From Phoronis australis (Eukaryota > Animalia > Phoronida): 63,902 bases of DNA. Under the pieces are notes generated by a model that was not told the origin of the DNA, ran no database searches, and was given only the letters and a program-made list of their open reading frames with translations. The stretch is from positions 248,099-312,000 of the forward strand of contig NMRA01000414.1 of the NCBI GenBank assembly GCA_002633005.1. The letters run 5' to 3'. The position numbers and the translations under genes are program-made. Shown here piece after piece: positions 4,012 to 62,572 of this stretch (its first letter is position 1; each line of letters starts with the position of its first letter).

Positions 4012-4194
4012 TCACACGTTGGTCTCCTCAACGTTTTGCTCAGATTCACTCGGCTTGTCTACCTGTGAGATGATTCGCCGTAAACTAAATAAGTCCGGCT
4101 GCTCTGGGACAAGCTCTGTTTCAAAATATTGTTCATTTCCGCCCTCTTCAGACTGGCCAATGCTTACGCCTGATTTCTGGAGTGCTACACGGAC
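4012..4194 (-). CDS. CLCN2: ClC-2 terminal coding exon (VRVALQK..EETNV*)
   Basis: gttccag| acceptor, 60 codons then TGA. Confidence 0.8.
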   Translation of the reverse strand, partial: VRVALQKSGVSIGQSEEGGNEQYFETELVPEQPDLFSLRRIISQVDKPSESEQNVEETNV

Positions 4195-7100
4195 CTGGAA
4201 CAGGTAACAGACCCCTTACAGGCATGTTAACAAACAAGTGATCATCTCAAAAGAACTTACAGGCTGGTACCCAACCACTCTACTCAGAACTTTGCTCAAC
4301 AGATGGCACTGTTACAAGATATTCTCACTTCATTTGTCTTTTTCAATATAACAACCCAGATCACCAGCAATGGCAAGAAATCACATCCATTTCAAATGAA
4401 GACTTTTGTTTCGTAAACATGTTTTGCAAACACCTTGTTCACCTCGCACCAGTTGTTTTAATCTTTTTAACAAGAAATGAACAAATTCTTAAATATAAGT
4501 CTAGAGTGAGGCATAAGCATATTTGGTTCTGGCCTGAGCCCAACTCATTTAAGAAGTGGCAAAAAGAGAACGCACATGCCTGCATCATTTGTTGCCAAAA
4601 TCCGTTTTTCGAAATCTTTACAAAAAACGTTTAACAACATTTTTAATGTAAAGGATTGTCAACTCTGCTATAATGACTTGGATAAATGAGTATGAATCTA
4701 TAGCGGACCAAGGTTTCATTTAGTGGGGGCAGCGAGAGACCCCCCAGGTCAACACCAGTACAGCCAATCATGTCACAGCAATACTATTTTCGGTTTTACT
4801 TGAGTAAAAGAAAAAGCATTGCCACACCACTGATATCAGGTCAAATTTTTCTGAAAAAAAAAAAACTAAAAAATATCACATCACCACACCATCAATGTCC
4901 TTTGTTCTGGCAGAGTAAATATGCCCAATAAAATTCTTGTCTCTCCTTTCCCATTATGAAGATGAAGTTTTGAACCAGTAATTGAGATAAACAATCATTT
5001 ACAAAAAAGTATTTCCAGACCACAACCAAATATACTTTAGGTCTGAAACTACAGCTAAACGACATTTTAAGCAGGATATTTTAATGTTGAAACTTTTGAT
5101 ACAAAAACAGTACGACACATGAAAGGTAACAAAACTCTTAGATTTACCTCCTTGAGGGCCACTACCCCCATTAGCCGGCCAACGTTGGTAACATACGCAT
5201 GACTGAGACCAAGCAGAGAGAACAATGAATGCACCTACAGTAGAGTAAAAGAACAGCAACTACTGGTAGTTTTCAAAATAATTTGGACAATGCTGAAAAT
5301 CAACAAAATTTTGGCGCACAAAACCGTGACTTAAGATCCATCAATTTTCGATTAGAATCCGTCTCACTTTTTGCTAAATCATGACAAAATTTCGACAGAT
5401 GTATCTCTGTCCACGATGTCCAAATCGCAACAAGTTGCTGAGCAAGTACATTACATCAGGGCTTGGAATGACCAATGACAAAAAACGCGGAAACTTTTAC
5501 GGCCGAAATCATGCCCGATAACCATTCTTGAAATGGTCAATGTGAACCTTTCCCCGACAAAAATCGGGAGGACTAAAAAAAAAACAAAAAAAAAACGTTA
5601 CCACCATCAGTAGCATGCGTCTGCGTCCTTTTAGCTCGCCCGTCCACTCCCAACCCACACATTTTTGGCTGCAGAGCGGTACTATTTGTCGCCGCGCTTA
5701 ACAATAACACGAGACGCCATTGAAAATCCCACCACGCTGTCCCAGATGCCCCGGCCATGTTGACAATTTACGTTCCTCCGAAATATAAAGAGCAACTTCC
5801 GCTTTTCGAGGTGAAAGTCGTCTGCAACGCCGCGGTAAGAAAGGAATTTGCTGCGCAAATTTTATATCAAATCCGATTTTTTTACGCGGAAATATTATAA
5901 AAAAAGTGGAAAGCACATTTGAAAAAAGCGGAAATCCGTGTTTCCGCGGAAAATTCCAAGCCCTGTTACATAAACAACAAGCGATTAGGCACAATAATGT
6001 CACAATAAACTCCTACAAAATTTGACAAAACACTATTTCATTGTCACAAAAGTTTGACTAAGCTGCCATATCATACCATATCAAGATGTTTACTCAAGAT
6101 TGTCAGAGTCTGACAGCATTCCGTCGAAGTTTGTCTCCAGCGTGTGAAACAATTAGATGAACCACATTTATTTATAATTTGTCCACGTGACATAATTGGT
6201 AAGAAATACATAAATCTAATCGTCCAACTTCTGGAGGCTTACTTTAACTTTTTTCCTAACATTTCAGAAATTTCCAATTCCTCACTAGAAAGAGCAAAAT
6301 TACCAAACTTTGCAATGTCGGTAAAAAATCATGCTTCCTTCATTTTTCATATTGAACAAGAGTTAATTCAAAGATTTCACAAGAAAATACACACCACTAA
6401 TAGTTCCTGTCATGCATTCAACACTTTACTTTTAATTTCAAAGTGGATAAATTTCAAAAGAACATAACAAAATATTCGTAAATTTCGAATAGCTGACGTA
6501 TTAAATATTCTGTCCGTGAGGTAAGACACACCTGAAGAATTAACAGGGGAGATAAAGAGAAGAGAGACCCTCAACAGTTATCTGAACCGTATTTTAATGT
6601 CCTTTTTGTGATTGCCATAAGAGATAAAAGATTGACAACATGAGATCACACTGTCACCTATACATTGTGTGAACACAATAAATAGTTGAAAAACACAATT
6701 ATACGACTTTGAACAGAACATTTATACACTCAGACTGTGCTCACATGTCACCTTATCAGGTGGCAGATACACCATGTGAACGTTTGATTTAACCGGCTTA
6801 TCTGCCATCTGAATCAGTTGTCCAACATGCTTTTTCATAAAACCAGAACAGTGTATTTGTCCCATACCTTATGTAAAGAAGTCCTCTCAACCAGTTGGAA
6901 TGGTGCAGGGTCAATCTGGCAACCATCAAAATTTATTCTCATTGTCAACTGTTCACTTTCCCACTGCTCTAGCTGAAAACAAAAATGTCAAAAGTTGTGA
7001 TTGCTGGATGTTACGGAGTGCACATAAAAATACCAACGTAAAGATAATACAGTGACGACTATTACCAGCAGACAAATACTTTCTAGTCTCTGGTGAGTTT

Positions 7101-10100
7101 GAGTCGAGCAGAAATCATTCAAGAACACCACACTTATTCATTTCTGTGTTTTAAACCACACTCTACAGTCTTACGTTAACCGAAATGAAGGACTCCAACT
7201 CTCCCAGTATGGCACTTTCTACTGTGTGTGACATAACAACAGGAAAGAACTTGTAGCACAAGTCACAAGATGGCAGAGCATGGTTTGAATTCTCAACTAT
7301 GATAAGCTGGGTATTACGTTATTTCTATTTTTCTCAGCTACGAATGCTGAAAGAATAACGGTTTGATGGATGGGCACTTTTATTACTTGTTCTAATGGAG
7401 GCTACTTGACATTGTAATGAGGCCATTCCTCTCCTGTACTAGGCCCAGAGTTTGCGTTAGTTATGTTTAAAGAACAGAATAAAAGTTTAAGTTCTCCAGA
7501 ATCTAATGTCCAACTTTTCTAACAAGTTTCTAAGGAATGCTTTCTGATTAGACAAAGCAACTTAAGACAGTCAAGAAAATGAACCAGTCTAAATCATTTG
7601 AACTGCACTTACATAATCAAAATAACTTATTAATAAGTTCCCTTGCTAATCCAATCTTTTTGAGCATTCTAACTTTAGTACCATCCTAAATTCAGGCCGG
7701 TCTAACTCATCTTTCGCATTGGACCTAAAATTCTCATGGTCGCGAAAGAATATTAGTTCATTATTCTAAATCCGTAATAGGAAAGGCCCTTCACATGTCA
7801 GGGGAACCAGCTTTACAGAACTAAAATCTCATACCTCATCTTCAGTCATGTCTATTGCACTTTGCTCCGGCTGAAAAAATAAAACAGTTTACGTTTAGTA
7901 ACAAAGTTTCCAAAGCTCATGCTACTGGATGTACAGTATGTGGCCAAAACAAACATCATCTGGCAATGACCATTATGTAATCATTACACAATTGTTTCAA
8001 CCAGAGTGGTGATGAGTCTGTAATGTATAGCTACGCCCCCAAAGGAGCACATTTCAGCGTGTTGTCATGACAACAACACCACACCATGTCCCGTGTGCAG
8101 AATCACTTAACCTGTTGTAAATTGCAAATTGCACAGTGGTTCGGATGATTAATAAGCATTATTAATTATTATCAAAAGTCGGACTTACCACAGAAATGTT
8201 ACAAGAATGAAAGCGTGGATATGTTTGATTTCTTTACAAAGAGCTGGGCGCAGATAACATGAGTTTGAGAAGTTTTTACTCCAACACACATCCTAAATGC
8301 AGTACACAAAGACAAATACTAGCTGAACTAATGCGCCTCCAATAGAGTAATTGTTATTCCGCTTTTCTATCAAAAGGAGCAAAACGAAGACAATGCAGTA
8401 AAACTACAATTTTGTAAACATTTGATTCACGCAAAATGTAATAACACTTCCACAGTTTTAAAAAAACAACCAAAGACCACACAATCAACTAAGGTGTAAA
8501 AAACATTTCAGTCATAAATATGTAAATGAGTGTAATTACGAGAGTGGTTCGTGGACATGGAAATCAAACCATGCAGACCAACACAACATAATACACTGCA
8601 AGTAATGAAGACGGCTAGCGTGCAGATTTGATTCTTTTCTATAAAGAGTCTAAAAGGTTAACACACGGAACAGAAACACATTCAAGCATCAAAGTCTATT
8701 TACACTGTGCTGCCAGTTTGCTGGTCAGCATTCCGCACTATACTTACCACTACTACGCGCACACGTTTGACCCAGTTGGGCTTGACAAAAAATTACCAAA
8801 GGTTACAAGCAGTGACTGACGAGATAACCACGGCTAAGTATTTGGCATTAATTTTCAGTGGACTCAGTGATACAGAGAAGTGCTAGCTTAAAGATGCTAT
8901 GTCTCATTAAAACCATGAATATTTAATATTGGAAGCAAGCACCACCTACTGAATATATGGAAAACTATGTGCACAAGTATAATCAGGAAACGAAACAATT
9001 TATATACTAACTAAATTGCAGTTTTAAAGAAAACACCACAACTGCTACACTTAAAAACAAGTGTGAACATATAAAAAACCCTAGTAATTCCAAACATTAC
9101 GAAATCGTTATTTGATAGTGAAATAAACAAATAGTAAAAACTGTGCCTTGTTTCACTAGGATGAAATATTACCATACTCATTTCCATGAAAATAGTCTCG
9201 CAAAACAAGACTTTCACGAGATTTTGATGGTAACTGGTTCTCGAATAGATTAAGGCACACTGGCGCACCTGGGGTTGCTTGCAAATTAGTACTTCATTTG
9301 CATATTCACAATTTAATGAGACTATGCATCTTTAATGTTATCTAAAGATCCAATTACAAGAACAATGGTGTAAAGTGTATCTTACATTACTAAACTTGGA
9401 TTTTTGCTATGTTTTTGTTTTCTTGGTACTAGGCCAAGCACGCTTGATCTCAAAACGATGGAAAACAAGCTGCTCTCTCGTGTTTCATTACAAATTAACA
9501 AACAGTATTGATCAGTATTTTTATTCCTACAGGGTGTTTCAAAATTACAGGACACATCTTAAATAAGAATAACTCCAAAATGGTGAGTAGCATACCCTAT
9601 GCTAGTTTTTACTCTTATAGCGTTTGAAAATTATAATCTTCAAATGGATGCCTCTGGAGCGTGAACACTCAATTGCTCTTTTTGTTTACCATCGACAACC
9701 ACGGCATTACCAAAATGTGGTAATTTTTCTCCTGAAACTTACCTCAGCCTGCTCTGCACTAATGGATGTACCCGATTTCACTTGATTATTTTTGTGGGTA
9801 TACTTAAAATTGCTTTTTCTCCAAATTAAGCTGCCAAAAAATGAAAAATGAAATAAGCCACCTTCACTTAATAAAGTCATAATATTCCTTACCCTGACAA
9901 TATCATCGTTAACAACAAGTTGAAAACCATCAGTAACTCAAAAAATGCTTCAGAGTACATCGGAGTTGGATAACCCTAAAAACTGTGAATTAAAAAATGA
10001 CACGTGATTTGAGTTGTCAGCTCATTTGGCAATAATTCAGATATGGCCAAGAATTCAACATGAACAGCGGAAAATCCTTTAAACTAAAGAGACTACATGG

Positions 10101-13100
10101 ACAAACCGCAAGCAACATCAGAATTTAAGGATAGCATTCTTAGAGAAATTGGGAGCATACCGGGTAGTTGGGTAATGTAATGGTTGCTGTAGCAAATACA
10201 GCAAAATAGTGTTCACATGCCAGAGGTGTCCATTTGAATATTGTAAATTTCAAACGCTAGGTGAATAAAAATTCCCATGCCTTGAAAATGCTGAGAGCAA
10301 GAAATGTTTATTAAATAAATACATCTTCTTTTTTTGGCTTATTTTTATTCAAAATTTGTCCCATAATTTTAAGACATCATATTATGGAAATTGATAAAAC
10401 GACCATACTTACTTCATATTCAAACTTAGTTTAACACTTTTCATGATACATTTAAGACACAAAGTCATGTATTCTAAATTAAGCAAGATTACCTCTTTGC
10501 TTTTCTTTTCCACTTGTTTCTTGCCCAATATATCGGAAAGCGAGCGGCTTTTCTTTGGACGGTTGAACTGCGGGTCAGTAGGACTCTTTTTCAAAATTCC
10601 CCGCATCGGAAATGAAACTGTGTTGTGATGGTCAACTGGTAAATCACTGGCTGTCTTGGTAAACTAGATAAAAATAGTAAACATTATGTGCTTAAAATTG
10701 GATTAACTAACTTAAGCGTCATTAGTTAACAAGAAGATAGTAGGCGGTCTGATGCCAGAACTTTGCCAGACAGGTGCAGGCATAGGCCTGGCCCATTGCG
10801 CAAAACACCCAATTTGAAACTCATAAGAACGAAGTCATCAGGCTGTTACTGAGAGAGGTTCCAGAAGTCCGTAGCCACATTCTTCCTCTACTGGTGTTTG
10901 GCATTCAATCCAAGTTGATATTTACAGAGAGTGTCTACAGTCACCACTGCTTTCGCCTGTCTGGTCATCTCACTTAACTTTCCACCCAGAATTAATGATT
11001 CCCCTGAACTAGTCTGGTTAGCTTACATTCACTTCTGCCCGTGATAGTAGAAGTAGACCCCAGTGACTCCCCAAGCATGTGTACACATCCAGATAGCTTA
11101 ATTAGTCGCTCGAGGAGCTGACGAAAACCTAATTTTAAATTAGGCCAATTAAATCTCTCAAACCCCATTTCATTTGCTCTAAAGATGATGTGTTTGCCCT
11201 GAAAAGAACATTCAAGTTAGTATGCTGTCGTTCACGACACTAATGTCTTTATGAGAATACAAAAACAAATCTCAATCTCCTACAGTGTTAGCCAGGGATA
11301 AACTCAGGAAAAGTGGAGTTGGGCACAGCTCAGGACACTAAACAGATGTTACAAACTTAATGTTTTTTCAAACTCAACCATGATGTTATGAATATTACAC
11401 AAGAGGCAGATTTATGTGACAGTCAAGATGCTAATGTGTGGCAGTTGAATTTGATCTCAGCTCTTCCCATTGATAAAATCTGAAACAACATCCTGTCCTG
11501 ACTAGGACTTCAACTTGATGCCTTCTCCTGGCGTTGCATAAGTTCTGTTCCAGTGACCACTAGAATGATGAACAGTCCAACTTCACTAGAATTTCACCAC
11601 TTTTGGACAAAAAATAATTGCCAAAATTGCCCATTTTAATATAATTCAAGGGCTTTTTAAAAACTGTTGTGGATGTCCTCAAATAGTTTGAAGGCAGATA
11701 TGGTGCACAACTTGAAAAGAGTAAAGCAGTCACTTGATGGTGCTTAAATTTTATTAAAAAAATTAGAAAACTTATCTAGATTTCATTTGTCCGCCATATA
11801 ATATTAATAACAGTTATGAGTCTCTTTGCTGAAGTCACATGACAAAAGGTACTATCTCCCCATAGCTCTCACCTTGGAGTGCACATCAACTCTAGCACTT
11901 TTCTTGGCAGGACTCTCCTCTTCCGGAGGTAAAGAAACCTTTGTCACCTCAAACCGACTCTTCTTAACAAGGGGTTTCTGTTCAGGAGCTGCCTTGGGAA
12001 CGTGAATTTCCTCGAGGTCACTGCCGTCAGATGCGGAGGCTGTGGCAGCCTTCTCCGCCTCTTTCAGAGCTGCTGCCTTGGCCAATAGGCGGCGCTCTAC
12101 ACTCAATTGCGTGGCCATCAGATATTCCAACTGAGGACGTTGGATGGAACCCAACAGAATCATGGACTCTAAAATATCATGAATGAAGTAAATGATTAAG
12201 TATACAAACATGTATTTCTTAAACCGGTGTGGAAATGTGTATCCCATACATTGTTAAGTGAGGTCAGCACACCACCTGTTGGCCACATCACGCGATCTGA
12301 TGAATATGAAGTCTGAACAGATTTTTGCCCTAATCGAGACTCGAACCCGTGACCTTTTGCTAACCGTGTACTTAATTCATTAGGTTTCGTGATGTGGCCA
12401 CAGGTAGCGTGCTGACCAGACTTAAAATTTTTGTGATAAATCATCAAGTATTTCAACTTAAAAAATGGTGATAACAAAAGATTTTTTGAAAATTAAGTTT
12501 ATGCTCTTTTTAAAATCAAGTTGCTAAGGGCATTAGGAAATCAATTTTTCATGCTCTTATAATAAGGATAAGAAACAAAATTAAGCTGCAAACTTAATTT
12601 TAAAACTATCCAGAAAAACACATAGATCTAGAACAAGGAAGTTAAAAATAAACACAAACGAAAAAGCAAGAAGCATAAAAGAGGGAATGAAGGACAAACA
12701 CAAAAACTGGAGGTGAGGTCAGAGAAGTTCAGCTGCAATGGACTCGGGACAAACCTTTAACCACATGGTATATTTACTTTTATTCGCGTAAACTTACAAG
12801 GCATGCCCAGCAAAGTTATTCCAGAACATGCTAGGCAGCTGTATTTAATACATTGAAACTTACAGTTAAAAGCCAATATTCACTCTTGGCTGACTTCCTA
12901 GATAAACCTATTTAACAAATCAATAACGTAGCCACTATAAATTGGTAGTCACTCAAAATGCCAAAACGGCATTGACTTCAAATTTATGGATATTTTACAA
13001 CTGGTCAGAGAATTCCGAGTAACGAGTATAAAATTAATGAAAACAATTTGTGTCGTCAGTCTGCAGATAACGAGATGACTATGGATGGAGAACAGTGCTA

Positions 13101-16100
13101 AAAATGATCAAGGCACTTGTAGACAAACAAGAAATTACAACACCAGAGGAAACAAACTTCTCTCCGGAGTCTACTTGAAAAATGACCAATAAGATCGCAT
13201 GAAATTTCAAAGTTTAGTCAAAAAGTGCCAACTGATTGGTCAATTTTCAAGTCGAGACTCGAGAAAAGTCTCTCTGGCGTGAATCTGAACCCATGAAGGT
13301 TATTTCTTGAAGTGTCTACTGTCTTTTGGCTAACAATCAATGTACGGACGGTTGAGCCCGTATCACGAATTTAGGCAACGGCTAAAAGTTAGAAAATCTC
13401 TCTACACCATGAAATCAACAGACAGAAATCTGCAGTTTGCTCAACAAGACAGAAGGCAGAACGTTTTGAAAAACGCAAAAGAAAAAATATCAACTTGTGA
13501 CTATTCAAAGTCAGATATCAGATTCTTGGCTTAAGTCAAAAGACAATAGATTCTTCAAGCAACAGGTCTCAGGTCAAAAACAAACGCAGACAATTGTGGT
13601 TAACGACTGGAATGTCTGACCGTATTACACTGCATATTCACTCAGGGTACAAGGGCGGAGAAAGCAAACCCAGCAAGCCTTTTTGGAGGATTTTCCGAAG
13701 CCGGTCCAACTGCAGGGTAATGGGTCGCCGATAAAACGTTTACCTGGCGAGTCTACTAGAGGATATGAACGGTGGCGCGGCCTACTGGCCAAGAGTGATT
13801 TCAAGTCGAGATAGGAATGTGTCATGCTGATGTACGTGACATCACATATCATAATGTCCTCCACAAAAATATTGTGAACGCTACAAAAGAACACAGTCAA
13901 GATAATGCTGATGTCGTGACCACAAAAGTTAGTAAAATACTGACCTGTAAAGAAAACATCACAAGTATCTATTCAATACTCTTGCGCAGAAACACGTAAG
14001 GATTATTACGAATTTGATAGAAACACCTTCAGGTTGCAACAATAACATTGCAAAAATACTAAATTTTAACGACAAGAATACAAAATCAAGGCAGCACTGA
14101 GTGTCCAAACTAACTGCAGTACATCTACCTAAAGCCAATTCTAAAAGAGAATTTTTACAAGCAAGACCAGAACAACTTGTGATGTCACTTTTCAGGTTGA
14201 TCCAACTTGTTGCCTTGTTGCACATTCACTTCACAACTTTAATTCTATTTCAAAACATTGTGATTTTACACAACCATCAACTTTATGAAAACTCACAGGA
14301 TAGAGTGGTATATCTCTTGAGAAGAAAACTCAGTGTTTTAGGCCTGAAATATGCCACAGCACCCATAAAATCTTCGCAAGAGACAAACCCATATCAAAAC
14401 CATGTTCTAAAAGACAAGTGCAACAAGACAACAGTTATTACATTAGGTGTACGTGAGTGCGCCCACACGCCATCTGTTGTCCACTTACCAGGCGCGTCAA
14501 CTAACGGAAACGAGCGCAGCGTGGGACCTAACTCCAACACTTCTTTCAGCTCTCCATAGGTGGAGATATAGCTGATAAATTTCACATGACGCACCATGAT
14601 ATCTTCCACAAAAACATTATGTGCGCTGCAAGTGTACACGGAAGATTAACAAGTGCTTGAACAAAAAGCTGAAACCGTGAGAATAATATCAAGGCTTGTC
14701 ATTTTCTTACCATGTAATGACTTGAAAATTTTCAACAAACCTGAGCAAAAAGGTAATAAACATTAATCAATGAATGCGGATGTTCGCTACTGAACAGAAA
14801 AACTTTTGATGGTAAAATTTTACTGGAGGAAACAAGAAATTGGCTTACTGTACTGGAATGTCAAGGCAAACATTCTGCAACCCTAATCACCTCCAAACTT
14901 AAGAACACTTGCTGCTGAAGAAAAACAATTCTTTTGGAACTGCGGCATTACCACTCTAAAACACAGCAATTCTTTTCTCAAAAACACAGCCATTTTTCTC
15001 ACAAACCGCACTTCATTTTACTACATATACCAATATCATTTACTGTACTTCGTAGGCATTGTCTAAACATACATAAATACAGATTAAATTCAAATGTATT
15101 ATTCAGAATATTGTCACAGAGCACTTCTTCTCTTTTGAATACGCAATGCAAGGTGGTGGATACTCATGGAAGCATAGATGCATGTTTTCTGCACTGTATT
15201 GTAACTAGTAGGTACTAGCAATTCATCTTGATAAAAGAAATATGTCCTTAAAAGAACTGTGACTCATAAGGAAAGAAAGGGACCTTAAGAAAAGAAATGT
15301 TGCGGACGAGAATGGATACACAACTTGCAAGAAAGCATTGTTTTTACGGGCAAAATCCCATTGCGAGAGCGGCTTATAACAAATGAAGATTGTCTATGCT
15401 GCGAGATGTTCAGAAAAGTAAGATACTCACAAGTGATGGTCACTAAAATTATGTGATTGGCTTGTAATTCGTGGCAATATCTCACGAAGACTTGTACGAA
15501 TTCGCCGCACTTGCAACAAACTAATCTTATGTAACGTAGTTTTGATAGTGACTTACTTTGAGCGAGTAGGAATAAAATCGGGTAAATATGGCAGACGTTT
15601 TATCTGTATCATGCTGTCGTAGATGGATGGAGAAAGCCCATTGGCTACGGCGTTGGCTATTAAAACAGCTATCTGTGAAGCGAGAATAACCAAAGGATTA
15701 GTTAAAGTAGACACTGTAAGTAAAGAATTTAGGCAAATGTATTTATAACACAAAGAGTTATATCTTTGAATGAGCGAGGGCAAAAGTGTGTCACTGGGGG
15801 AACGGCAAACATTCGTGGCAACGTCAAATCCTACTAAGAATATTTGGTGACATTTCTCCACCAATAAAAAGTAAATAAAATAAATTAATGTAGACAGCAT
15901 TCAAAATATTCTATCTAATCGCAACCAGCAGTAGTATACAGTTCAGTACAACACAATTATTTTGTCCACTGGCGACGCCTAGACATCTACAGGATGGCTA
16001 AGATATGCTAACCGATTACTGACTAATGACCTCTTTGCCCTGCCTCAGATGTTTGCAAACTGTCACTCGACAAAATATACATCAACAGTGCTATTATAAC

Positions 16101-19100
16101 TAATTTCTCACCACAGCAGGCAGGACATGAGTAATTTGTCCCGTCAGTTCAAATACTATAACGGCAGTTGAGATTGTGTGTGTTACGCTGCCAGATAGCG
16201 CTGCTGCCCCTACGACAGCATAACCACCCGGAACGATGCGGTAGATTGTGTCCCCTGTATGAACGCCGTCTGGGAACCACACCGCCATGGCTTCGCCAAC
16301 CAAACGACCGAATGCTGCACCTGCATTGGTGGAACATGTGGTGAGTACAAACATTTGATCCTTCACATTAGAATCATTCCAGCAAGGGATTCTGGGTATA
16401 GGAGCATAAGATGTACATGTTGACCAATCAATTTTATTAGAAGACAAAAATGGGTTTCCTACAAAAGGTATCTTTGTTACAAGTACCTTAAGATTGATAC
16501 AGTGAGATAAAAAATACAATGAAAAATATCAGTTCAATCATATGATAATCGTCAACAGATGATACAGGTTTGCAGCAGGAACACCTATCAATCCGCAGTA
16601 TCACTGAGAAATCACAAATAACTGTAATAACACAAGGAGTTATCGGACATGCATTTTAATTACAATTTCGTGGGAAATTGTGTTTTGCTTTCTACAATAC
16701 TGAAGCCTTTCTAAGACTAATGATAACGTGAGAGGCAGGAACATATGACATCATCATGTGTCGGGATGTCTGACGGGCGTCTCGGAACGTTAGTCGGGGT
16801 TGTATGTGTTTGATAGCAAGCAAGCAGACTAATGTTCCGAGACATCCGTCAGATGTGCCCACGCAGGATAACGTCCCACGTTCCAGCCTCTCACGTCATC
16901 AGACTGAGAAAGGCCTCAGAGTGAATTCTGAAAACATTAACTAGGCACGTAACTATATCGTTGACCATGTACTAAAAACTTTATAATTTTTATTCCAAAT
17001 ATGACACGTGTGGAATCTGGGAGGTAATTCTTCAAAGTCCTACTGCCAGGTCTAGATAATAATGCCAGCCTAATCAGACTCCCCATGATTCTTGAAAGGT
17101 ACTTACCAATAGCAAACACAGGAGTGAAGACACCAGCTGCAATAGGCAGAGTGTTGGATATGGCAGCCATACAGAACTGCAAGGCAAGAACATCAACTTA
17201 AACAATCATTTAGAACTGGATGACCTAGCAGCAATGTTTTTGGTTTCAAATTAACTTACGAATTGCTGGCTATCAGGCATAATTTAAGAGACTTTACTGA
17301 ATTCCTGACACTTATAAACTGGTATCGGTGCAACATAAGTGAACTTAAGAAGTTGAAAATATTTGTACAATAGTGTTCCACTTGACCGAGCAAACACAAT
17401 GAGCGATTAAACTCAGACTGAGATCATCTTAAGTTGATCGTGAAAGGAAAAATAATGAAGAAATACCACAATTAAGTCAAGAATGTCATTTCATGAAATA
17501 AATGTTACTTGCATAGCAAGACCGTCAGTAAAGAGTAAATAAACGTTGAACTGTCTAAGATATTAAGTGAAGATTCAATCTTGATCACAATCATGTTGGA
17601 CTTCCCCCTTGAAGGCATTTGGTATTTGTACACAGAGATCCTAGATACAAACTTATAAACAAAGTATACAGGCGTCTTGTTCATGCTTTAAAGCACCATG
17701 ATGCTAGTGTAGTAACCGTAAATGAATCAATGACAATTTTAGTTTCAAAACTTATTCTGTCGACTTAATAGACAAGCAAATGACCACATAAGATTTCCAC
17801 AGCTCAGACAGCAGCAAGAATTTCAAGCCGATGCATGTCAAAAACACCGATTGTCCTACATGTGTTAGAATTTGATCTCACCTGCATGATGACGTAAAAG
17901 GTGAGCGTGACGAAGACGTTTGTGTGAGGGTTATTCCACGTGTCCACCACAGCCTGCTGCTCGATGTTGAGAAATTCACGTGATGACTCAGCCCAGGAAA
18001 AGTTACTGAACAACTGGTTAATAGCCGTCTGGAAACTCACCTGAAATGGAGACGGACCAACAACTGACTTACCTAGGATGTTATAAAGGGGGTGAGGGGT
18101 AGCAAATACAAATTACCAAGGACAAAACATTTTCATGCCATAACCAACCACATAACATTGAGAAGGATTGATTGTCAATGATCATTTTTAAATTTAGGCC
18201 AGTCAATAATGCAAGTTTCTAAAATTTGATATAAGAACCGACCTAGAGCAAAATAATCAAATTTTCACTGTCCCAAAATGAAGAATTTTCACGGTATCTG
18301 CCATTCCCATATTTTGGCTGCGTCCGAAGGCAGCACCATGATGTAATTATCATACAGTGACCATACAAATAAATATATGTAAAACTATGCTTAATATGCA
18401 TTTTAGTTTGACGGAATTGTTGAGATACACTTTCACAAGGATGGTAACTGTCATACTGTCCAAGTCAACTGCTACGTTCCTTTTAACGGCAGAAGTCAAA
18501 ATTTCCAAATTTTCAATTTTAAACTCCCATGCTATTCTAAGCCCCCACCCCTCATTTATATGACAGAGACTGCCTAAAAAGTGCCCGTGTCTTTGTGAAT
18601 GCCGGTTTCATCAGATGTTTAGCTCCCATGATGTGCCAGTAACACACGTCTCATAAGAATTTAAGCTCTCAAAACGTATGCAATTTGCTTTACTTTGGCA
18701 GTCAAATTCAGCAGAACTTATAAATATCTGGGCGGGAATATACCGACTCTTTATTGAAGGAGATGAGAAATGGTTCTCTTGGCTCATGCACATTCTAATA
18801 TTAATTGTACTGGACCTGTGCAAAAATGTGGAATGTATTTGTGTAAGCTGACCATTCTATCCCAAACTTCTCATGCTCACGCCCACCCAAAATTCTGGAA
18901 TTTGAAATTCAAGTGCCCTGAGGGCTAACCTGGACAAGTGCTGTAATGAATGAAAACGTGCACTTATTCGAAGAAAAATACTCGTCTACTGACAGTAATT
19001 GTTAGTATTCCTCAAAAATAAAATTGAATAAACCTCATGATACTTGATTCCTTTTGTAAATGTCCCATGATCCATTGTGTGACATTGTCAAACCCACTCG

Positions 19101-22100
19101 TCATTCACAATTAAGTTGATTCCATCCAATTCCAAGCATGTTCTGTCAGACGATTACACAATATTACGACACACGACGTTCAAAATTCTAAATGGGTACT
19201 GGATTGACAACCCATTACCCAATCAGTTTGCTTAAAAGTTTGTATGTAACAGTACCACAGCAACTTACATGGCCAGCCATGAACTGTCCAAAGCCGAGAG
19301 GGAAGGTGATTGTAGCCACTAGGAACGAGACGACAGCTGGGTAGATAAAGCGACTGGAAAGGAAGCAGATTATTAGATATGGGAAAAATTATAATCAATA
19401 AAGAAGTGCTGCATTTCTTTGACAAGAAGGGGTTGATCCCAACACTAACCATAGGAAAGGTTTTGGTTATATTTGATCCTAGCTTAACAATCCTGAAATA
19501 CATTACTCTTCAAAACTGGACTGGCTATAATGTTGACATCCTGTACAAGCATTAAGTGACACCCGTCGACTGTGTGCGGCAATTCAACATGACTGTGTAC
19601 ATTGAGCATAGGTGGGGAGTATGGTGATAGCCACTTACAGGGGTGACCGGACTTTGAGAACCAGTTTGATGCCTGTTATACAGTGTAGAAAACTGGTTCT
19701 CAAAATGTGGGACCCCTGTAAGTGACTGTTACTGAGAGTATCACAAGACTCCTAAATGACACATATTTTACATGTGACATTTACGAAATATGATGTCAAA
19801 GCGGCAATAAACCTGACTTACGTCACAAAATTTAGATTCAGACCAGTTACTGTTCTGAAATTGGTATCAAAATTTTCCTGTCGAATTGGTGATGATTTTA
19901 GAGCTCCCAGAGAACTGACCGTCTGTTAAGACTACAGCTTGTCATATTATGCGCCGAGCGTTGTATCAACGGATAACGAACTGTCAGTTATTTGCAAACC
20001 CAGAAATCTCTTCGCATCTGAGCAAAGAACAAATTGAGACAAATTCTCTAGCCTTGGGTGGTTTAAATCAAGTTTGCTTCTTAGATGGAACATGGGTATA
20101 TAGATGTTTCAAGCTATATAATACAATTTTTTTTCTTTTTTATTGTGATATTTAAAATGAGGGTGACCTCTTCAGTGATAGCACTGCTTTCTAAGAGGAC
20201 CCTCAACAACAAAAACAGTAATATAATACAATGAAGTAATAAAACAACAATTAAATATACATGACAAAGGTACAATTAAAACAGGTTGAGAATTAAGACA
20301 ATACATGAATGACGAAGAATGGCGAAAATTTAACTAAGAGAGATGAAATAAATAAAGAGATGACTCTAAACAGTGAGAGTATTTATGGCAATGAGAAACA
20401 AAATGACATGATTAAGACAAATGTTTTGAACAATGGGAAAAACAATCGTCTGGAGTGTTCCAGATGTCCTATTTTGAATTGCAGTCAAAAAGTGCTAATA
20501 ACAAATATCAAATCGATGATTTTAGACAAAACTTACTTTTTCTGTAAAAAGCTGGACAGTTTTTTATGCATTCTCATGAACTTGATGATTCGCCGATGAA
20601 CGTAAACAAACAGAGCGCCACCAAAGCCACATATCACTCTACAAAAGAAAAAAAATCACTGTGTCAAACAAAACCCTTCAGAGATATCATGCGGTACAAT
20701 CTCACTAGTTTCTGACAAAAACAATCGCTAAGATTGCCCTTTCATCATTTTTCAAGTTCTTCTTATGGTGTTGAGAGTGACCAGAAGTTCGCAAAATTTT
20801 GAGTGGCCTTGGATACCATACGGAACTAGAACATGGCAAAGCATTCATTACGTGCTATCTTTCATAGGAGCAAATACGAATCAAACAAATAAAATTTCAG
20901 CTGTCTACCATATTATGTCCAATACTTTGACACTGCATAGTTTATTCTGAAAACTATATTGCACATAGAGGGTGCTTTCAGCTCAAGACCAACAAAATTG
21001 TACGTATCATAACTGCCAACAGTATTGACCACACAGAAACAGCAACAGTCCATTTGTAAGGCTAGCAATAAGGATAAAATACAAAATTTGAATCTGTCCA
21101 TGGCCCAGACCTATGACATTTAACGATTTTCTACTTTAGGCCTAGGAGGAGTTACCGGATAAATGAATGTATTAACGCCCATGATCCCATGAGTGAAGCA
21201 CTTGAGCAATACAACTGTCATTTATCAGGCCAAACAAATGTCCAAACTTAATCCAACATTTCAAGACAGACAAATACTAATCCTACGGGAAGCTGTCATG
21301 GCTGTGATAGCCAATCAAATAGAAGCTGTCATTTATCAGGCCAAACAAATGTTCAAACTAAACCCAACATTTCAAGACAGACAAATACTAACCCTACAGC
21401 AGCAAAAGCAAACAGCTCTATGGCGTCAAAGGCAAACTCTGTCCTCAGCCGTGTCTTAAATAGTGCTGTTATAGTCTCTACAATCAGTCAGACAGTAAAA
21501 CATATGAATGCGTGTGCAATATGAGCAGAAGTAAGCAGTAAATTCATCTTGTAATCAAGCACCATGCAACATTGAAGGATGTACAAATTAAAATCTAAGC
21601 ATCTCGCAGCAAACAGCAGCAACGCTGAAAATATAGACAATAATTAGTGAAATACAAGATCAAAAGTGCACACATCTGAGCACAAACAAAAACTATAAAA
21701 CACTGGTTATTAACAGATAAGAGAAAATCTAACACACTGCATACCAAAAACTGTATTCCACAAACCTGCCACAACGTTTATTCTGTACTTGGATCTTTAG
21801 TAGAAAGTAAGTTACAACACGAATTTTGGAGAATCACTGCCGTCACTAAATCGAGGCTATGTGAGACCACTGAAAACAGTGGCGGATCCCTTATGAAGCA
21901 GGTGAATCTAAAGCTTCAGGCCCCCCATGCCCAGTCACACAGGGGACCCCAGTGTCGGATGTCTAATGAAATTAACTATCTGTTAATAGGCCTCGTACAG
22001 AACAAGGGCCTCATCTTACAATAACAGGGCACCATAACATGGTGGTTTACGTAGGAAGGGCATTGCAGAGCGCTTTGAAACCGGTACAAAAGACAAGCGG

Positions 22101-25100
22101 TATTGGTAAAAAGTTGACCGAAGGAACGGTTACCAGGGGGAGGAGTTTGAGAGTTTACATTATCATGGCTTGGAATGATCAATGACAAAAAACAGGGAAA
22201 TTTTCTAGGAGATGGATCATTCCACAAATAAATAAGCTTAAGTGGTAGCAATACTTTTTGTTGTATGAATAAAGTCAGTAAATGAAAAAAGAGACGAAAA
22301 AGAGGAAACTCAAAATCAAATGAGAGGAAATAGAAACCAAAAAACAGGAAATCTTCTTAAAAAAGGAAAATTCCAAGCCCTGATTATGCACCTGTTCATA
22401 GTTGCATGGGGCCCCCATAGCTGATTAAGCTTCAGACTCACAACTGTGTAGAAACACCTGAAAGTGCTGTACCACATCAGAGACTACTCAAAAAGGTAAC
22501 CATTTACACCTTTATGTGAAATGCCGTACTACAATTATGTCAGTAGCATTATTTTGATAGCATAATAATTGTTACACACTGGTATACCCAAAACCCCTGG
22601 TGGTGTTTTCACATACCTTCCTCAGTGAACCAGAACGCCAGCAGCCGGAACACCAGAGCACCACAAACCGCCGAGAAGAAACCTCGCCAATAGTTACGCA
22701 CGGCAAAGTAGGTCGCTGTGACCTCAATACTGAATAATACACCTAAAAACATTAAAATTGCAACTAACAAGGAGAATAATAATTATAGTTCATGGGGATA
22801 CGATTCACAAACAAACTTCACGGAAAAGCAGGATATTTGCATAAATGTCATTTCGCCAAATAATGAAAGTGCTCTCAGGAGCGATACTAGGCAGAATCGA
22901 CTGAAAAAGCAAAGAAAACGTCAAAGGCACAGATAAAAACGATGACCAACAAAGATAAAGATTAAGACTTCAAAAAGTCTTGAACTTATCACTGATAGCA
23001 ACAATAAAAGACAATTAACGCAGAAATGATAGTGAGAAATGGATGAGATACTCCAGATAGTTCTTGACTAGGTCTATCTACATACCAAATTTCATGATAA
23101 TTCCAGACAGGACCGTGGAGTGAAAATTTGAATAATGACAGCATTCTGTCTCCAGTTTCAAGCATAAACTAATAGGCATCGAATTATAGATGATTGACGT
23201 TTTGTGTGTAAATTTCATGTTGATCAGACAAGAAACGTGATTTGCAGCATGCATACAAAGAAAAAAGTCACCACAAAGCAACATTATTGGCGGAATTACA
23301 ATGCGCCATCGGCTAATTATCAGCTTAGGTCCCATAAAAAAGGAGGCAAATAGTTAAATGTAAATATACTTATTACTCTTCTGCTAACAGCATTTCTTCG
23401 GTTTATATTAATTTTTTTACCATTATAATCATTCTTAACAAGATTCGCACTTCCAATAGGAGTAGCCAGTGCAACAAGAAGTCTATTCATTTCCAACAGG
23501 AGCAACCAATACAGTTAATAAATCTCACCTCCAATAGGAACAGCCAATACAGTTAACAAGAGTCTCACCTCCAATAGGAGCAGCGAATGTACAAGCAACA
23601 CCCACAGCACAAGCAGCAGCCAGCATTTCACTATTACGTGACTCGTTCTGAAAAGAACCATGCTCAACTATAAAACGAGCAAACTCTCCGCAAAACACCA
23701 ACTTCACAGAGCTTGCTGAGAACTCCAGTGTCCGAACGGATGACAGTTACTCAACCTTCCCTAAAAGGAGGCCAATCCACAACAGGTTACTTAAAGTTGC
23801 AGCAACTAACAATTAAAGTAAACTTGGTTGTCAAGAAGATTTTAAGAATTATTGACACAATAAAACATTAATTGCAATTTTCTATTTTTGAGATTCAAAG
23901 TTTTGTGTCAAGTGGTCCGGTGGCAGATGAGCACCATGAGTTATGCTAACAACGAAGTAGGATCTAAAACTTGCTATTTTTGTTAGGGAGTTTGGCAAAA
24001 TAAAATTCTGCTTTACTACCACATTGAATACAAAACTGAAAAATCTTTAGGTCTACCATTTACACTTCACTGCTCAATAATTTACATGATTGTGTTCTCA
24101 AAAACAGCTAATAATACTACAAAATTTTGGTGCATGAATCAAAATTTCTGTAATAATCTGATGTCGACAATAACAGAAGGTTGTAGATTTTTGAAACTGA
24201 ACAATTTTCTTGCACATCTTGTAGCCATACATTGGCAGTATGTCTGAGTGTCAGACCTTTAGTCGTCCATCATCAGCTGTGTAAAACTTGGAGTGCTTGT
24301 GCACCCATGAATAGCATCACGTGTTGATAATGACATACCTCGTAGATACCACGAAAAGACGTCACTAGCTTACTGAGTAAAGTTGCCACGATACTGGCTA
24401 CGTGGACAAAAGGGCCCTGAAAACACAGAGTTAACGATGCATTAGGTTTCATATTAAACTTCTGTTGCCAAGGGAGACCCAAACAAACAAGGCTGAATTA
24501 TTGATTTTAAGACGTCTGTCCAACATCAGACCAAATTTCGACATTTACTGATTGTATAAATATTCAACATAGATATTACACTTTGCACTTCAAATGTCAA
24601 TACAAAGCACACAAAACTGAGTTTGAACTTTGCTTACTATTAACAATTTAAAAAAAAAATAATTTGGTGGCAAAATATTCAGTCAATGTACATTACGTGA
24701 TTTACGCACATCTTTTACCACGCAATACGGACTCTGTGACCGGTAAAAGAATAGGACCTCTTTCTGAACAAAACAGGAAGACAAAACTGACGAATGAGCT
24801 TCCAAAACATAGTCCGATCATATAACATTACAGCAAGCAATTCTATAACTAATCTGGCAAGCTTCATCATGTTACAAGTAACCCTACTGCAATTTGCAAC
24901 TTATTAGTAACAATACAGCTCTTAACATTAGCGTATCGTCGTAAAAATTTTGGATGACATACGATCATGTTCCATTTAGGTTTTAATGCTAAAAATTGTA
25001 TTAACCTTTACCCAACTTGTGAACTGAAGAGATAATGAGACAAACGAAGAACGTAACGGACACAAAACAAAAGTAAACAGACAAAGAGCTGTTTCCCCAT

Positions 25101-28100
25101 CATGACAGCTAATTCCGTTAACTGCACAATTACTGGCAATGACTATTAGGGCGGCGAAATTCTAATTACAGAATGATTTAGCCACCTTACTAACTGGCCT
25201 GTTAATTCCCCTTCATTCTCAGTCATCAGGGGAGACTACTCCGACGATGAATTGGCTTTCGCCCAGACGTCCTGACGGAGAATTCCGGGCCATTTTGTCT
25301 GAATGCGTTTGGCTTGTACTGCGTTATTATTTGTAAATATAAATTTATCACCAGATCTGTGCGGCTCAGTGACTTGAGCTCCACACTCCGATGTGGGAGA
25401 CCCAGGTTTGAATCCTGTCTTTACTGGCAGACAATCAAGTACTGCACAAAGGTGTCTCCTACACCAGTAACCTTCGTCTTACTTGTAATGAACGTATGCA
25501 AGGGAATGAATGAGAACCAGGATACAATGCAGGAGTGATTTCTAGGGCTGTGCTCATATTTTTATCATCAAATCTCATCTTGTTAACAATACATTCAAAT
25601 TGTACGATCCCTCACCTCTTTTCCTATAGGGAGTCCACTTCCAAGAGAAGTAGTAAGACCCACCATTTTAGAAACAAGTGTTCTAAATGTTAAATACTCT
25701 TTCAACACAACTCCACGCAGAATAGTCTTCATCTCTGGAATACCAGAACCTGAAAAATCAACGAAAAAATTGTTACAAAATGTGGAAATAACACACCAGG
25801 AAATGCAAAATAAAATAAAATAAAATAAAATAAAATAAACAAGTAGCGCATTTCACATTTGGTCTGTGTAAAAAACCAAAAAATAAAATAATCAGAGTAT
25901 ATTTTCAAAACAAAGCTCACCAATGATACTGTGGCATTGATAATAAAATTCCCCTCACCTGATGTTATTGGTGTCATTTTTGTGTCATGGTTTTGAACAC
26001 GCCATTAGCCATTAAGATTGCCTAAGATTTTGTATGAAGCATCAAAGATGCAAGAAAATGACTTGTATTTTGAATTATTGATGGTGGCAATGCGCACGCG
26101 ATAGGTTAATTGAAATAACCAGACAAGTGAAAGAAATGGTGGCTGTCAACGCTATCGTGAACAGCAATTTGGTACAAATAACAAGTATCAACGACAGAAG
26201 AATGTAGCCTATTGGACTACTGGCGCTTGACTAGATATTTGTCTGGGCCTTTTATCTGGATGTTTATCGTCTTTTACCCTCACTTAATCCATTCTGAACA
26301 CAGCGTGTGGAAGCAACTTTTGCTGTGGAAATTTGCTCTGGGGAATCATTGGACCCTACTGTCATGAACAGAATTGAAAGAGAGGCGACCAGACCTGGTT
26401 CTAGGCAATCACTTATCCTTCTGGTCCGAAGGTTAAGTGAGATGACCAGACCAGCGGAAGCAGTGGTGGTTGTGGATGCCATCTGGGGTTCATCAATAGC
26501 AGACGAATGAAGCCTACATGGCTATGAACTTCTGCAACCTCTCTCAATAATATAGAGGTAGGGAGAGGGATAGGGAGAGGGAGGCGAGGGGAGGGGGAGG
26601 AGGGTAGATGTAGAGATAGAGATAGATATAATACATATATGAGCACAGCCCCAGAAATTGCTTTCACATTATATCCAGGTTCTCATTCACTCCCATGCAC
26701 ACATTCACATGTAAGACACAAGAAAACTCTAATGACTATATAAATAAGAGAGTACTCAATTGTTTTATGCAATGGGCTCAACCTATGTGGCCTGCAACCT
26801 TTTTTTCACGCGCACGAGTATGTTCACGATCTCATGTTGAAAACGTAGACAAAACTCAGGCAAACCCAAAGAAGAGCATTTATTTGTGAGCCTTTATCAT
26901 CAATTCATTAACACGAAGAAAGACACAGTGATTATAAATGCACCAGTTGTTGTACAGGGCACAAGGCCAGTCAGTGTTTGGGTCACGTGTACAGCAGTTA
27001 CTGGGTGCCCTACCCAAATAGGACAGCACCTACCTATGGCTTGTGGAGAGATGATGTGTGTGAAGCCCGTGGAAAACAGGACAAACAATAATGTGTAGCT
27101 GACCCAGGCCAGGTACTGTAAGACTGGTGAGAAGTTGAGCTCCTGATATAACCAGTAGTGGGCTGAAAGGGAGAGCAATGGGTGAACAATGGCACAATTA
27201 TACTGCAAACATCCTTCTATGAGCGTAAAATAACTACCAAAAATTTTCACTTTCTACTTTCAACAGCTTGCTACAATGTTACATAAGTTCAAATCCTCCT
27301 GAGTATTGGTAAAATTTTAATGATAATATAGACAAATATTTTTTTCTGCTGTCATATTGGGTGTTAAACTGAACAATGTTAATGAAGATAATCAGTGCTT
27401 TTGTTTAAAAACCGAATTTTGCGATGAGGTGTTTGTGAACACTTTTTCAGGTAAAAGAAAGCATTTGTCATCAGCAGCCAAGACTGAATCGTATCAGGCG
27501 GAAGGTGCCTGTGCCTTCAGATGATGAAATAATTGTCATTGAGAGGAAATTTGCCCCCAGTTGTAACCAAATCTGCCCCCTACAACATGCCACCACATAC
27601 ACAGCGAAAACAAAATTTGCAATTAACGATCAAGAGGAAGAAATCAAATATATAATCCTTGGTTACAATACCTGTCTGACATTTTTCTATGGTGTAGTCC
27701 ATGATGAAACTGCACAGCGCCATCGTGACGCCGAGCATGGCAAGAAATATCCAGTCTTCGCCTACTTTTGAGAATATAAAGTCACGGACTACCAGAAGAA
27801 ACGCTGGAACAAATAATTAACAATCATGAAAGCGCTCTGAGGAGCGAAACTTGGCGAAATTAACCAAAAAGATGACGATAAAGATGATGACGAATATGAC
27901 GAATATGACGACGATGGTGGCGAAGATGAACAAAAGAATAATAACATACACATGACGAACGTAGACGTCTGAAATCAGTAAGAAAAAGGCTACAGTCTTG
28001 AGCGACACTTGGCGAAATTAACGGAAAAGACAACGACGGAGATGATGACGAAGATGATGACGATGATGACGAATATGATGATGGTGGTGGCCATGATGAA

Positions 28101-61939: not shown

Positions 61940-62572
61940 TCACTCTAAACTGCTGCCAGGCAAACTGCTATCGAGAGAGTCTTCACGTAAGTAACGAGTC
62001 CGCGGAATATCGATACCAACTGCATTTAGCACAACGTGCACATGGGATGTTTCGTCTTCACTAGAGATACTAGCCTCGTCTTCATGAGGTTCCTCTATTT
62101 CTTCTATGGCTTCCATGACTATATTGCTATACAAAGACGAGTTAGTACGCGTCCTTTGGCGTTTAGCTATGTAGATGTCGGTTGCCGTCGGTAATGTGTG
62201 CTTAGTGTTTGGACTCCCGGATGGACTGGTCTTTGGGCTGCCTTTTGGACTATTCTTTGGACTAGAACTTAAGCTGATCTTGTTCTCTTTACGTTTGTGG
62301 AATAAACTGATCAAGTTGGAGAAGAAAGATTTGTCTTTGCAGGCTTCCTTCTGCTGCAAATCGGGTTCACTGATAAAACCAGGTGTGGCATCACGGGGCA
62401 TCCGTTCTGTCAACACTGGCAAGGAGCGTATTGTGTTCCTACTGTTTTTGTCCATGGTGACCTTGTTCGGCGCACTTTTATGCCTCAATCTTTCCTTATC
62501 CCTCTTTTCCTTCTTCTGCTTTGCTGTGGGAACAAAGGGCATGTGCCCACCTACGGCATTTGGGAACATCAT
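61940..62572 (-). CDS. Uncharacterised 210-aa disordered, Ser-Pro/basic/acidic-rich ORF (MMFPNAVGGHMPF..PGSSLE*) in an exon starting at acceptor 62612
   Basis: Longest ORF in the window; ttttctcgtattttcag| acceptor at 62612; AAA-ATG-ATG context; SPKNSPKGSPKTSPSGSP repeats and RQRTRTNSS motif. May be an alternative 5' exon of ClC-2 or an exon of a neighbouring gene. Confidence 0.75.
   Translation of the reverse strand: MMFPNAVGGHMPFVPTAKQKKEKRDKERLRHKSAPNKVTMDKNSRNTIRSLPVLTERMPRDATPGFISEPDLQQKEACKDKSFFSNLISLFHKRKENKISLSSSPKNSPKGSPKTSPSGSPNTKHTLPTATDIYIAKRQRTRTNSSLYSNIVMEAIEEIEEPHEDEASISSEDETSHVHVVLNAVGIDIPRTRYLREDSLDSSLPGSSLE

What the first reader, a model, noticed from the sequence alone, without database searches (positions are those of the whole stretch)
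13744..14625. Tandem mutually exclusive exons give ClC-2 two alternative CBS1 domains
Seen: two 137-nt exons with identical phases (2 to 1), intact splice sites and 23/45 identical residues by my count. Including both reads GCG TTC ACA ... TTA TGA (stop after 10 codons); skipping both also frameshifts, so exactly one must be used. Divergence is concentrated in the middle ([18 protein letters not shown] vs [18 protein letters not shown]), changing charge and adding His/Cys. Established: CBS domains control common gating and nucleotide/pH sensitivity of ClC channels. Inference: a splicing switch for channel regulation; I know of no duplicated CBS1 exon in vertebrate CLCN2.
Basis: partly seen in the sequence, partly recalled or inferred. 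Interest (0 to 1): 0.78.

Follow-up and report, generated by a model that had tools for sequence, protein, structure and literature searches.

The report
Swappable ATP-site exon in chloride channel
In a marine-invertebrate-type (lophotrochozoan) chloride channel gene, one exon is present as two old, intact tandem copies of which only one fits at a time, and the rarely used second copy would swap a residue that, in the human relative, sets how tightly ATP binds, so splicing likely tunes the channel's regulation.

Summary
Confirmed. Exons A (14625-14489) and B (13880-13744) are both 137 nt with AG/GT ends and 23/45 identical residues. Either alone gives a 922-aa frame; both together or neither gives an early stop. 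B is not decaying: synonymous sites are saturated (pS 0.76, pN 0.30), and 0 of 6000 neutral simulations kept its profile score. RNA reads show A is the main form (8 junction reads in two of three runs). B has one read that ends exactly at its acceptor and none at its donor, so its use is likely but thinly shown. Corrections: the exons encode about two-thirds of CBS1, not whole domains; the gene is a lophotrochozoan ClC-1/2-clade channel, not vertebrate CLCN2. Added: the swap puts Leu (A) or His (B) at the position of ClC-1 V634, which sets ATP affinity there. No docking/selector pairing was found; nonsense-mediated decay is the likely safeguard. Human CLCN1 and CLCN3 already have duplicated alternative exons, but different ones. 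No second copy was seen in sampled relatives, none of them close. A new member of a known kind, with a sharp testable prediction.

The parts
4012..34604 (-). ClC-1/2-clade chloride channel gene, 22-exon model, 922 aa (first exon and the linker exons between CBS1 and CBS2 are my inference)
   Evidence: joints 15672/16112 and 12168/14489 seen in RNA
15557..15672 (-). Upstream shared exon (end of membrane domain, LPYLPD linker), ends in phase 2
   Evidence: acceptor joint in RNA
14489..14625 (-). Exon A, 137 nt, first two-thirds of CBS1; main form in the RNA sampled; strong donor, weaker acceptor
   Evidence: (5+0+3 junction reads to 12168)
14517..14519 (-). Leu codon of exon A at the ClC-1 V634 position
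   Evidence: alignment; for the role of V634
13881..14488 (-). Intron between A and B, 608 nt, single copy in the window, predicted to fold into two long stem-loops (14436-14204, 14197-13943); role unproven
13928..13934 (-). Perfect UACUAAC branch-point-like heptamer 49 nt before exon B; the only one within 70 nt of the 22 acceptors listed
13744..13880 (-). Exon B, 137 nt, paralogous copy; minor form; strong acceptor, weaker donor
   Evidence: (one read ending at 13880)
13772..13774 (-). His codon of exon B at the ClC-1 V634 position
   Evidence: alignment
11873..12168 (-). Downstream shared exon (rest of CBS1 and start of linker), begins in phase 1
5148..5234 (-). CBS2 exon holding the shared half of the putative nucleotide site (V860 and E865 equivalents kept; Ser at the H847 position, as ClC-2 has Asp there)

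Best explanation
The exon that encodes the first two-thirds of CBS1 is present as two old, intact tandem copies, only one of which keeps the reading frame at a time; A is the main spliced form, and B is likely a minor, regulated alternative that would change the channel's nucleotide-sensitive slow gating. Shown: the anatomy, the frame logic, selection on both copies, and splicing of A. Likely: B is spliced from the upstream exon in some cells or stages. Inferred: transcripts with both or neither exon are removed by nonsense-mediated decay, since their stops lie about 105 and about 150 nt before the next junction (50-55-nt rule from my own knowledge). Inferred: B keeps the core of the fold and the V613, T636 and P638 equivalents but puts His for Leu at the adenine-facing V634 position and a basic loop before it, so it would bind ATP or respond to pH differently.
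For: Frame logic. Codon-position identity 29/32/19 of 45, pS 0.76 against pN 0.30, and no similarity in 300-nt flanks (110 and 35 of 200 shuffles reach the score). B scores 71.9 bits on a profile of 82 relatives' segments (A 78.6; profile members 66.3-96.5); 0 of 2000 neutral copies keep 23 identities and 0 of 6000 reach 71.9 bits in a model that also lets A drift. RNA: 8 reads join A to 12168. One X1 read lies from about 13766 to exactly 13880 and runs on unlike the intron. An A-to-B read would match one more base and add to the depth of 5 at 14505, so its partner is probably the upstream exon. V634A abolishes ATP inhibition of ClC-1, aromatic residues raise apparent affinity (K1/2 0.78 mM to 0.026-0.11 mM), and plant AtCLC-a uses His620 there (PMC3068280, passages). 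ATP slows ClC-2 common gating through the C-terminus (PMC3778897, abstract). NMD backs up 14 of 29 such clusters in C. elegans (PMC4165533, passages).
Against: B rests on one read whose loose letters were not printed. No read ends at the B donor, and two X1 reads cross it unspliced; X2 and X3 show only unspliced or intronic reads there. Only about 18-19% of each run was read and depth was under 6. Joints under 3 reads are not listed, so A+B and skip-both forms could not be excluded, and the upstream-to-A joint was not listed either. No second copy in any relative sampled. V634H was not among the mutants in the passages seen, and the ClC-1 H847 equivalent is Ser here, so ATP control of this channel is itself unproven. 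B also departs at conserved positions outside the site (R to C, K to T, S to H), so its effect could lie elsewhere.
Confidence: 0.72

Rival explanations
1. B was functional for a long time but has recently fallen out of use; the single read is leaky splicing to a strong acceptor.
For: One read against 8 for A, none at the B donor; B donor scores 6.6 against 9.8 for A; B has several substitutions seen in 0-1 of 82 relatives.
Against: Frame, both splice sites and all invariant residues are intact; the acceptor scores 12.7, near the top of the gene's range, and the donor lies inside its range of 2.7-10.9. Whole-sample RNA would dilute a cell-type isoform. The long-term constraint test cannot see a very recent loss.
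Confidence: 0.12
2. B works mainly as a poison exon: including it after A puts in an early stop and lowers channel levels by nonsense-mediated decay.
For: A+B stops after 10 codons of B, about 105 nt before the next junction; the 608-nt intron is long enough to be spliced; such transcripts would be rare in RNA.
Against: A poison exon read in the shifted frame would not keep the CBS frame under selection, yet B does. The one read fits upstream-to-B better than A-to-B.
Confidence: 0.06
3. Both isoforms are made, but they differ in something other than nucleotide sensing, such as CBS dimer packing, partner binding, redox or metal sensing through the new Cys and His, or trafficking.
For: 18 of 26 middle residues differ, most outside the listed ATP-site positions; CBS domains also pack across subunits and move during gating (PMC10942593, passages).
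Against: The one exchanged position with a measured effect in a close relative is the V634 equivalent, and 18 of 82 relatives' segments carry His, Phe or Tyr there, so the B state is a natural, tolerated one. This rival shares the splicing part of the best explanation.
Confidence: 0.25
4. Exclusion is enforced by RNA structure (docking/selector pairing, or folding of the middle intron that brings the A donor too close to the B branch point).
For: The middle intron folds with z = -4.8; its best stem (-28.9 kcal/mol) just beats the best of 30 shuffles and has pairing probability 0.97; it is single copy in the window; a perfect UACUAAC lies before B.
Against: Candidate docking pairings score within chance and have probabilities under 0.001. 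The stems fold about as well on the opposite strand (z -5.8/-5.4 and -3.5/-3.1), and unbiased tiles give z -1.9 to -0.2; 4 of 65 control intron windows reach z of -5 or lower. Donor-to-branch contour distance is 45 against a shuffled median of 52, with 7 of 25 shuffles shorter.
Confidence: 0.15
5. The second copy is an assembly artefact, an allele or a piece of a paralogous gene.
For: No whole genome was available to check.
Against: The copies are only 60% alike with unrelated flanks; RNA reads cross both ends of B into its introns and a joint spans B from A to 12168; no other exon is doubled.
Confidence: 0.02

Closest known systems
Human CLCN1 tandem duplicated exon substitution (ENST00000343257 / ENST00000650516)
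   Same: Same channel clade; two homologous internal exons of equal length not divisible by three (79 nt), listed as a mutually exclusive pair (supplement rows of PMC8373072 and PMC5740500).
   Different: A different exon, in the membrane domain; its counterpart here (23647-23569, also 79 nt) is single copy. Dated there to bony vertebrates.
Human CLCN3 C-terminal tandem exon substitution
   Same: ClC family; listed as a duplication-derived substitution; the peptides look like the end of CBS2 (my reading, from recall of ClC-3 anatomy).
   Different: Terminal, not internal; an endosomal antiporter; changes the C-terminus, not the CBS1 side of the nucleotide site.
Duplicated mutually exclusive exons of ion channels in general (sodium, calcium and Slo channels)
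   Same: Same architecture; ion-transport genes are 42 of 214 human and 27 of 154 fly genes with such events, often arising independently (PMC9741552, passages).
   Different: CLCN, chloride and CBS have 0 hits in that main text; here the swap is in a cytoplasmic ligand-sensing domain.
Drosophila ClC-2-type channel splice variants (Flores et al. 2006)
   Same: Alternative splicing of an invertebrate ClC-2-type channel (seen only as a reference title).
   Different: Not read. From recall the variants differ by a cassette in the linker between the CBS domains, not by a duplicated exon; unverified.
[quoted passage not shown]
   Same: V613, T636, P638, V860 and E865 equivalents are kept (V, S, P, V, E); the V634/Y617/H620 position is Leu in A and His in B.
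   Different: In those proteins the residue is fixed by the gene; here it would be chosen by splicing. Binding was not tested here.

Membership tests
Mutually exclusive exons from tandem duplication | Adjacent homologous exons of like length and phase with canonical splice sites | tested here: met
Mutually exclusive exons from tandem duplication | Each exon alone keeps the frame; both or neither break it | tested here: met
Mutually exclusive exons from tandem duplication | Both single-inclusion transcripts are observed | tested here: inconclusive
   A: 8 junction reads. B: one read at the acceptor, none at the donor
Mutually exclusive exons from tandem duplication | Double-inclusion and double-skipping transcripts are absent or rare | tested here: inconclusive
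   No such joint listed, but joints under 3 reads are not listed
Mutually exclusive exons from tandem duplication | Both copies under purifying selection | tested here: met
   (comparison within this genome and against a profile of relatives; no orthologue of B)
Mutually exclusive exons from tandem duplication | Pair conserved in related species | tested here: inconclusive
   No second copy in 20 of 20 loci or in annotated isoforms, but no close relative was among them and several loci end before a neighbouring exon
Mutually exclusive exons from tandem duplication | Tissue- or stage-specific choice | not testable with these tools
   Runs are coded and shallow
ClC-1/ClC-2/ClC-K channel clade | ClC membrane domain with GSGIPE and GKEGP motifs, two CBS domains, Val at the proton-glutamate position | tested here: met
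   Model (LFSIEVT, as ClC-1/2, against LFSLEEV of ClC-3); the meaning of that position is recalled
ClC-1/ClC-2/ClC-K channel clade | Groups with invertebrate ClC-2-like proteins | tested here: met
   Quick tree: in the lophotrochozoan group of 12 rows, SH-aLRT 98, outside the mollusc group (100)
Vertebrate CLCN2 orthologue in the strict sense | One-to-one orthology with CLCN2 rather than with the CLCN1/2/K group | not tested
   The tree held no vertebrate ClC-2 or ClC-K
ClC CBS nucleotide site (ClC-1 type) | V613, V634, T636, P638, V860, E865, H847, L848 equivalents | tested here: inconclusive
   V, L or H, S, P, V, E kept or similar; H847 is Ser and L848 is His
ClC CBS nucleotide site (ClC-1 type) | ATP binds and changes common gating | not testable with these tools
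   needs binding assay or patch clamp
Dscam-type docking/selector exclusion | One intronic element pairs strongly and competitively with a selector for each exon | tested here: not met
   Candidates within chance and with probability under 0.001; covariation could not be tested
Steric or U2/U12 exclusion | Very short or distant-branch-point intron, or mixed U2/U12 sites | tested here: not met
   608-nt intron, first upstream AG 27 nt before B, donors GTAAGT and GTAAAC; contour distance ordinary

The most novel reading that the evidence does not exclude
Splicing selects the adenine-facing residue of a ClC channel's CBS nucleotide site, Leu in most cells and His in a few, so one gene yields channels with different ATP and pH sensitivity. 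The two states match those fixed separately in other animals (aliphatic in lancelets, echinoderms and vertebrate ClC-1; His, Phe or Tyr in molluscs and hemichordates).
Probability: 0.3. Interest if true: 0.68.

Novelty: new member of a known kind. Interest (0 to 1): 0.45.

Why it matters
How nucleotides and protons act through the CBS domains on common gating of ClC channels is studied almost wholly with engineered mutants. This gene offers a natural pair that differs in 22 residues of CBS1, including the best-characterised ATP-site position, on an otherwise identical channel; both forms can be expressed and compared directly. It is also a third, independent exon duplication in the ClC family, and a reminder that such minor exons are easily missed in annotation. 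It does not change how splicing or ClC channels are understood to work.

Tried and rejected
No whole genome is held, so no genome-wide or sister-species test. The run search listed no RNA holder; three raw RNA runs and one contig set came by species label; X4 showed nothing on either exon. Word-based protein search with B found no hit; HMMER over 1.84 billion representatives gave 5 hits at 43-60% identity, none a B orthologue. Annotated isoforms of lancelets, nemerteans, a chiton, bivalves, sea urchins, a brittle star and an acorn worm each show one version of the segment per gene (one lancelet record lacks it). 20 of 20 metagenome loci have one copy. An ancient A-type/B-type split across phyla was considered: the 45-column tree does not group A with B, but holding them together is not rejected (p-AU 0.21), and both share a one-residue insertion with Pro that Lingula, nemerteans and molluscs lack; age unresolved, a lineage-specific origin is favoured. 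Docking/selector pairing, steric exclusion and U12 sites were rejected. Rfam gave only a weak hairpin match far below threshold. Paper searches found no duplicated CBS1 exon in a ClC gene: 0 papers; listings seen, not on point; one of them read in passages. The library lacks most subscription journals, and the one supplement held for PMC9741552 (15,271 characters, no ClC hit) may not include its fly gene list. Earlier findings of this scan: none in three look-ups. One search timed out and was replaced. No structure was predicted.

Full report
Observation. Two 137-nt exons lie on the minus strand at 14625-14489 (A) and 13880-13744 (B), each with AG before and GT after, in phase 2 to 1. They share 23 of 45 residues and 82 of 137 nt. 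I built a 22-exon model from window coordinates, guided by a lancelet protein. A alone or B alone gives 922 aa; both give a stop ten codons into B (640 aa); neither gives a stop at 631 aa. The first exon and the linker exons are my inference, and I left out one candidate exon (9830-9743) that did not fit the frame; none of this touches the A/B logic. No other exon of the gene has a second copy in the window.

What the gene is. It has the ClC motifs and two CBS domains. A quick tree of 32 proteins places it among lophotrochozoans (SH-aLRT 98), outside the mollusc group (the careful search did not finish, and no vertebrate ClC-2 or ClC-K was included). It is best called a ClC-1/2-clade channel. 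The exon aligns to human ClC-1 601-642 and B matches Pfam CBS positions 1-37 of 57, so the choice covers about two-thirds of CBS1. The exon borders are old: several unrelated metagenome loci have the same AG and GT positions.

Is B alive? Identity by codon position is 29, 32 and 19 of 45; pS is 0.76 (saturated) and pN 0.30; 300-nt flanks show no similarity beyond shuffles, apart from 14 nt at the acceptor. So the duplication is old. On a profile of 82 distinct segments from relatives, B scores 71.9 bits and A 78.6, against 66.3-96.5 for the members themselves. Neutral copies of A taken to the same DNA distance never kept 23 identities (0 of 2000). In a stricter model, with A drifting only at silent sites and B neutral, 0 of 6000 runs over six branch lengths reached 71.9 bits. 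B has been kept by selection in the CBS frame. This cannot exclude a very recent loss.

Is B spliced? Three raw RNA runs with the same species label were laid, about 18-19% of each. The joint from A to the downstream exon has 5, 0 and 3 reads; no joint with B was listed, but joints need 3 reads to be listed, and the upstream-to-A joint was not listed either. On a 450-nt stretch around B, 5, 4 and 2 reads lay. Ten are unspliced or intronic, two of them crossing the B donor. One X1 read fits only in part: depth shows it from about 13766 to two bases into the bin that starts at 13879, that is exactly to the acceptor at 13880, and it runs on for 20 or more unlike letters. A read coming from A would share the last G with the intron and fit one base further, and would add to the depth of 5 at 14505 that the five A-joint reads already explain. 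It is therefore probably upstream exon to B. This is one read, its loose letters were not printed, and no read ends at the B donor. B is at most a minor form in these samples.

How exclusion would work. The middle intron is 608 nt with ordinary U2-type sites, so steric and U2/U12 exclusion do not apply. A has the stronger donor (9.8 against 6.6) and B the stronger acceptor (12.7 against 5.2) on matrices from this gene's own introns, and a perfect UACUAAC lies 49 nt before B. Competing docking pairings were within chance and improbable in the fold. The middle intron does fold well (z -4.8), but about equally on both strands, not in unbiased tiles, not more than 4 of 65 control windows, and with an ordinary contour distance. 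It is a lead only. The simplest safeguard is nonsense-mediated decay: both wrong forms stop well before later junctions (positions; the distance rule is recalled), and NMD backs up 14 of 29 such clusters in C. elegans (PMC4165533, passages). What chooses B is unknown; regulated splicing factors are inferred.

What the swap would do. The positions that line the ClC-1 ATP site map as follows: V613 is Val in both, T636 Ser in both, P638 Pro in both, and V634 Leu in A but His in B; V860 and E865 are kept in the shared CBS2 exon, while H847 is Ser. In ClC-1, V634A abolishes ATP inhibition, aromatic residues raise apparent affinity from 0.78 mM to 0.026-0.11 mM, and the plant channel AtCLC-a has His620 there (PMC3068280, passages; V634H was not in the tables seen). 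ATP also slows ClC-2 common gating through the C-terminus (PMC3778897, abstract), and the ClC-2 site overlaps that of ClC-5 (PMC10942593, passages). Among 82 relatives' segments this position is Leu, Ile or Val in 64 and His, Phe or Tyr in 18 (the set is rich in fish ClC-1). I commit to nucleotide and pH tuning as the most likely role, at roughly even odds once B's use is granted, because B also changes conserved residues elsewhere.

Relatives and literature. No second copy was seen in annotated isoforms, in a HMMER search with B or in 20 of 20 metagenome loci. None was a close relative, and several loci are too short for absence to count. The age of the duplication is unresolved; a shared Pro insertion favours an origin in this lineage. 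Duplicated alternative exons are enriched in ion channels (PMC9741552, passages) and are catalogued for human CLCN1, a 79-nt membrane-domain exon, and CLCN3, a C-terminal exon (supplement rows of PMC8373072 and PMC5740500). Six searches found no duplicated CBS1 exon in a ClC gene, within a library that lacks most subscription journals. PMC3245913 was read in passages and mentions ClC-2 only in a reference.

Verdict. A real, selected, likely functional pair of mutually exclusive exons: a new member of a known kind, in an exon where I found no precedent, with a direct experiment attached. Interest 0.45, held down by the common architecture, the single read for B and the lack of a conserved orthologue.

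Noticed in passing
window 23435-23588 (-): A 38-40-nt tandem repeat of about 4 copies holds the end and donor of the 79-nt exon 23647-23569, giving spare donor-like sites just downstream. This is the exon that is duplicated whole in human CLCN1.
   Followed up: partly
window 13881-13907 (-): A second AG 27 nt before exon B, downstream of the UACUAAC, would extend B in frame by nine residues without a stop. The one read uses 13880.
   Followed up: partly
window 12240-12437: Inverted-repeat element in the intron after B draws many partial RNA reads from other loci and has a second copy near 38780-38898; probably a small mobile element.
   Followed up: partly
window 13156-13269 and 13303-13562: Two further inverted repeats downstream of B (44-nt and 29-nt arms); the first gives a weak Rfam hairpin match far below threshold.
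   Followed up: partly
window 14505: Synonymous difference in exon A in 5 of 5 X1 reads and 0 of 6 X3 reads; three differences at 13902, 13909 and 13970 lie in the intron before B. Likely alleles.
   Followed up: no
window 9743-9830 and 11198 (-): Candidate extra exons in the linker between CBS1 and CBS2 that I could not place in frame; relatives have many isoforms in this linker.
   Followed up: no
window 61940-62707 (-): A 255-codon open frame rich in Ser, Pro and Lys ending in its own stop, weak DUF4512 match (E 0.017); only low-complexity likeness to ClC linkers. Probably another gene.
   Followed up: partly
P0035, P0036: The barnacle and Lingula records repeat the CBS1 region with identical sequence, which looks like an assembly or gene-model duplication, not divergent alternative exons.
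   Followed up: no
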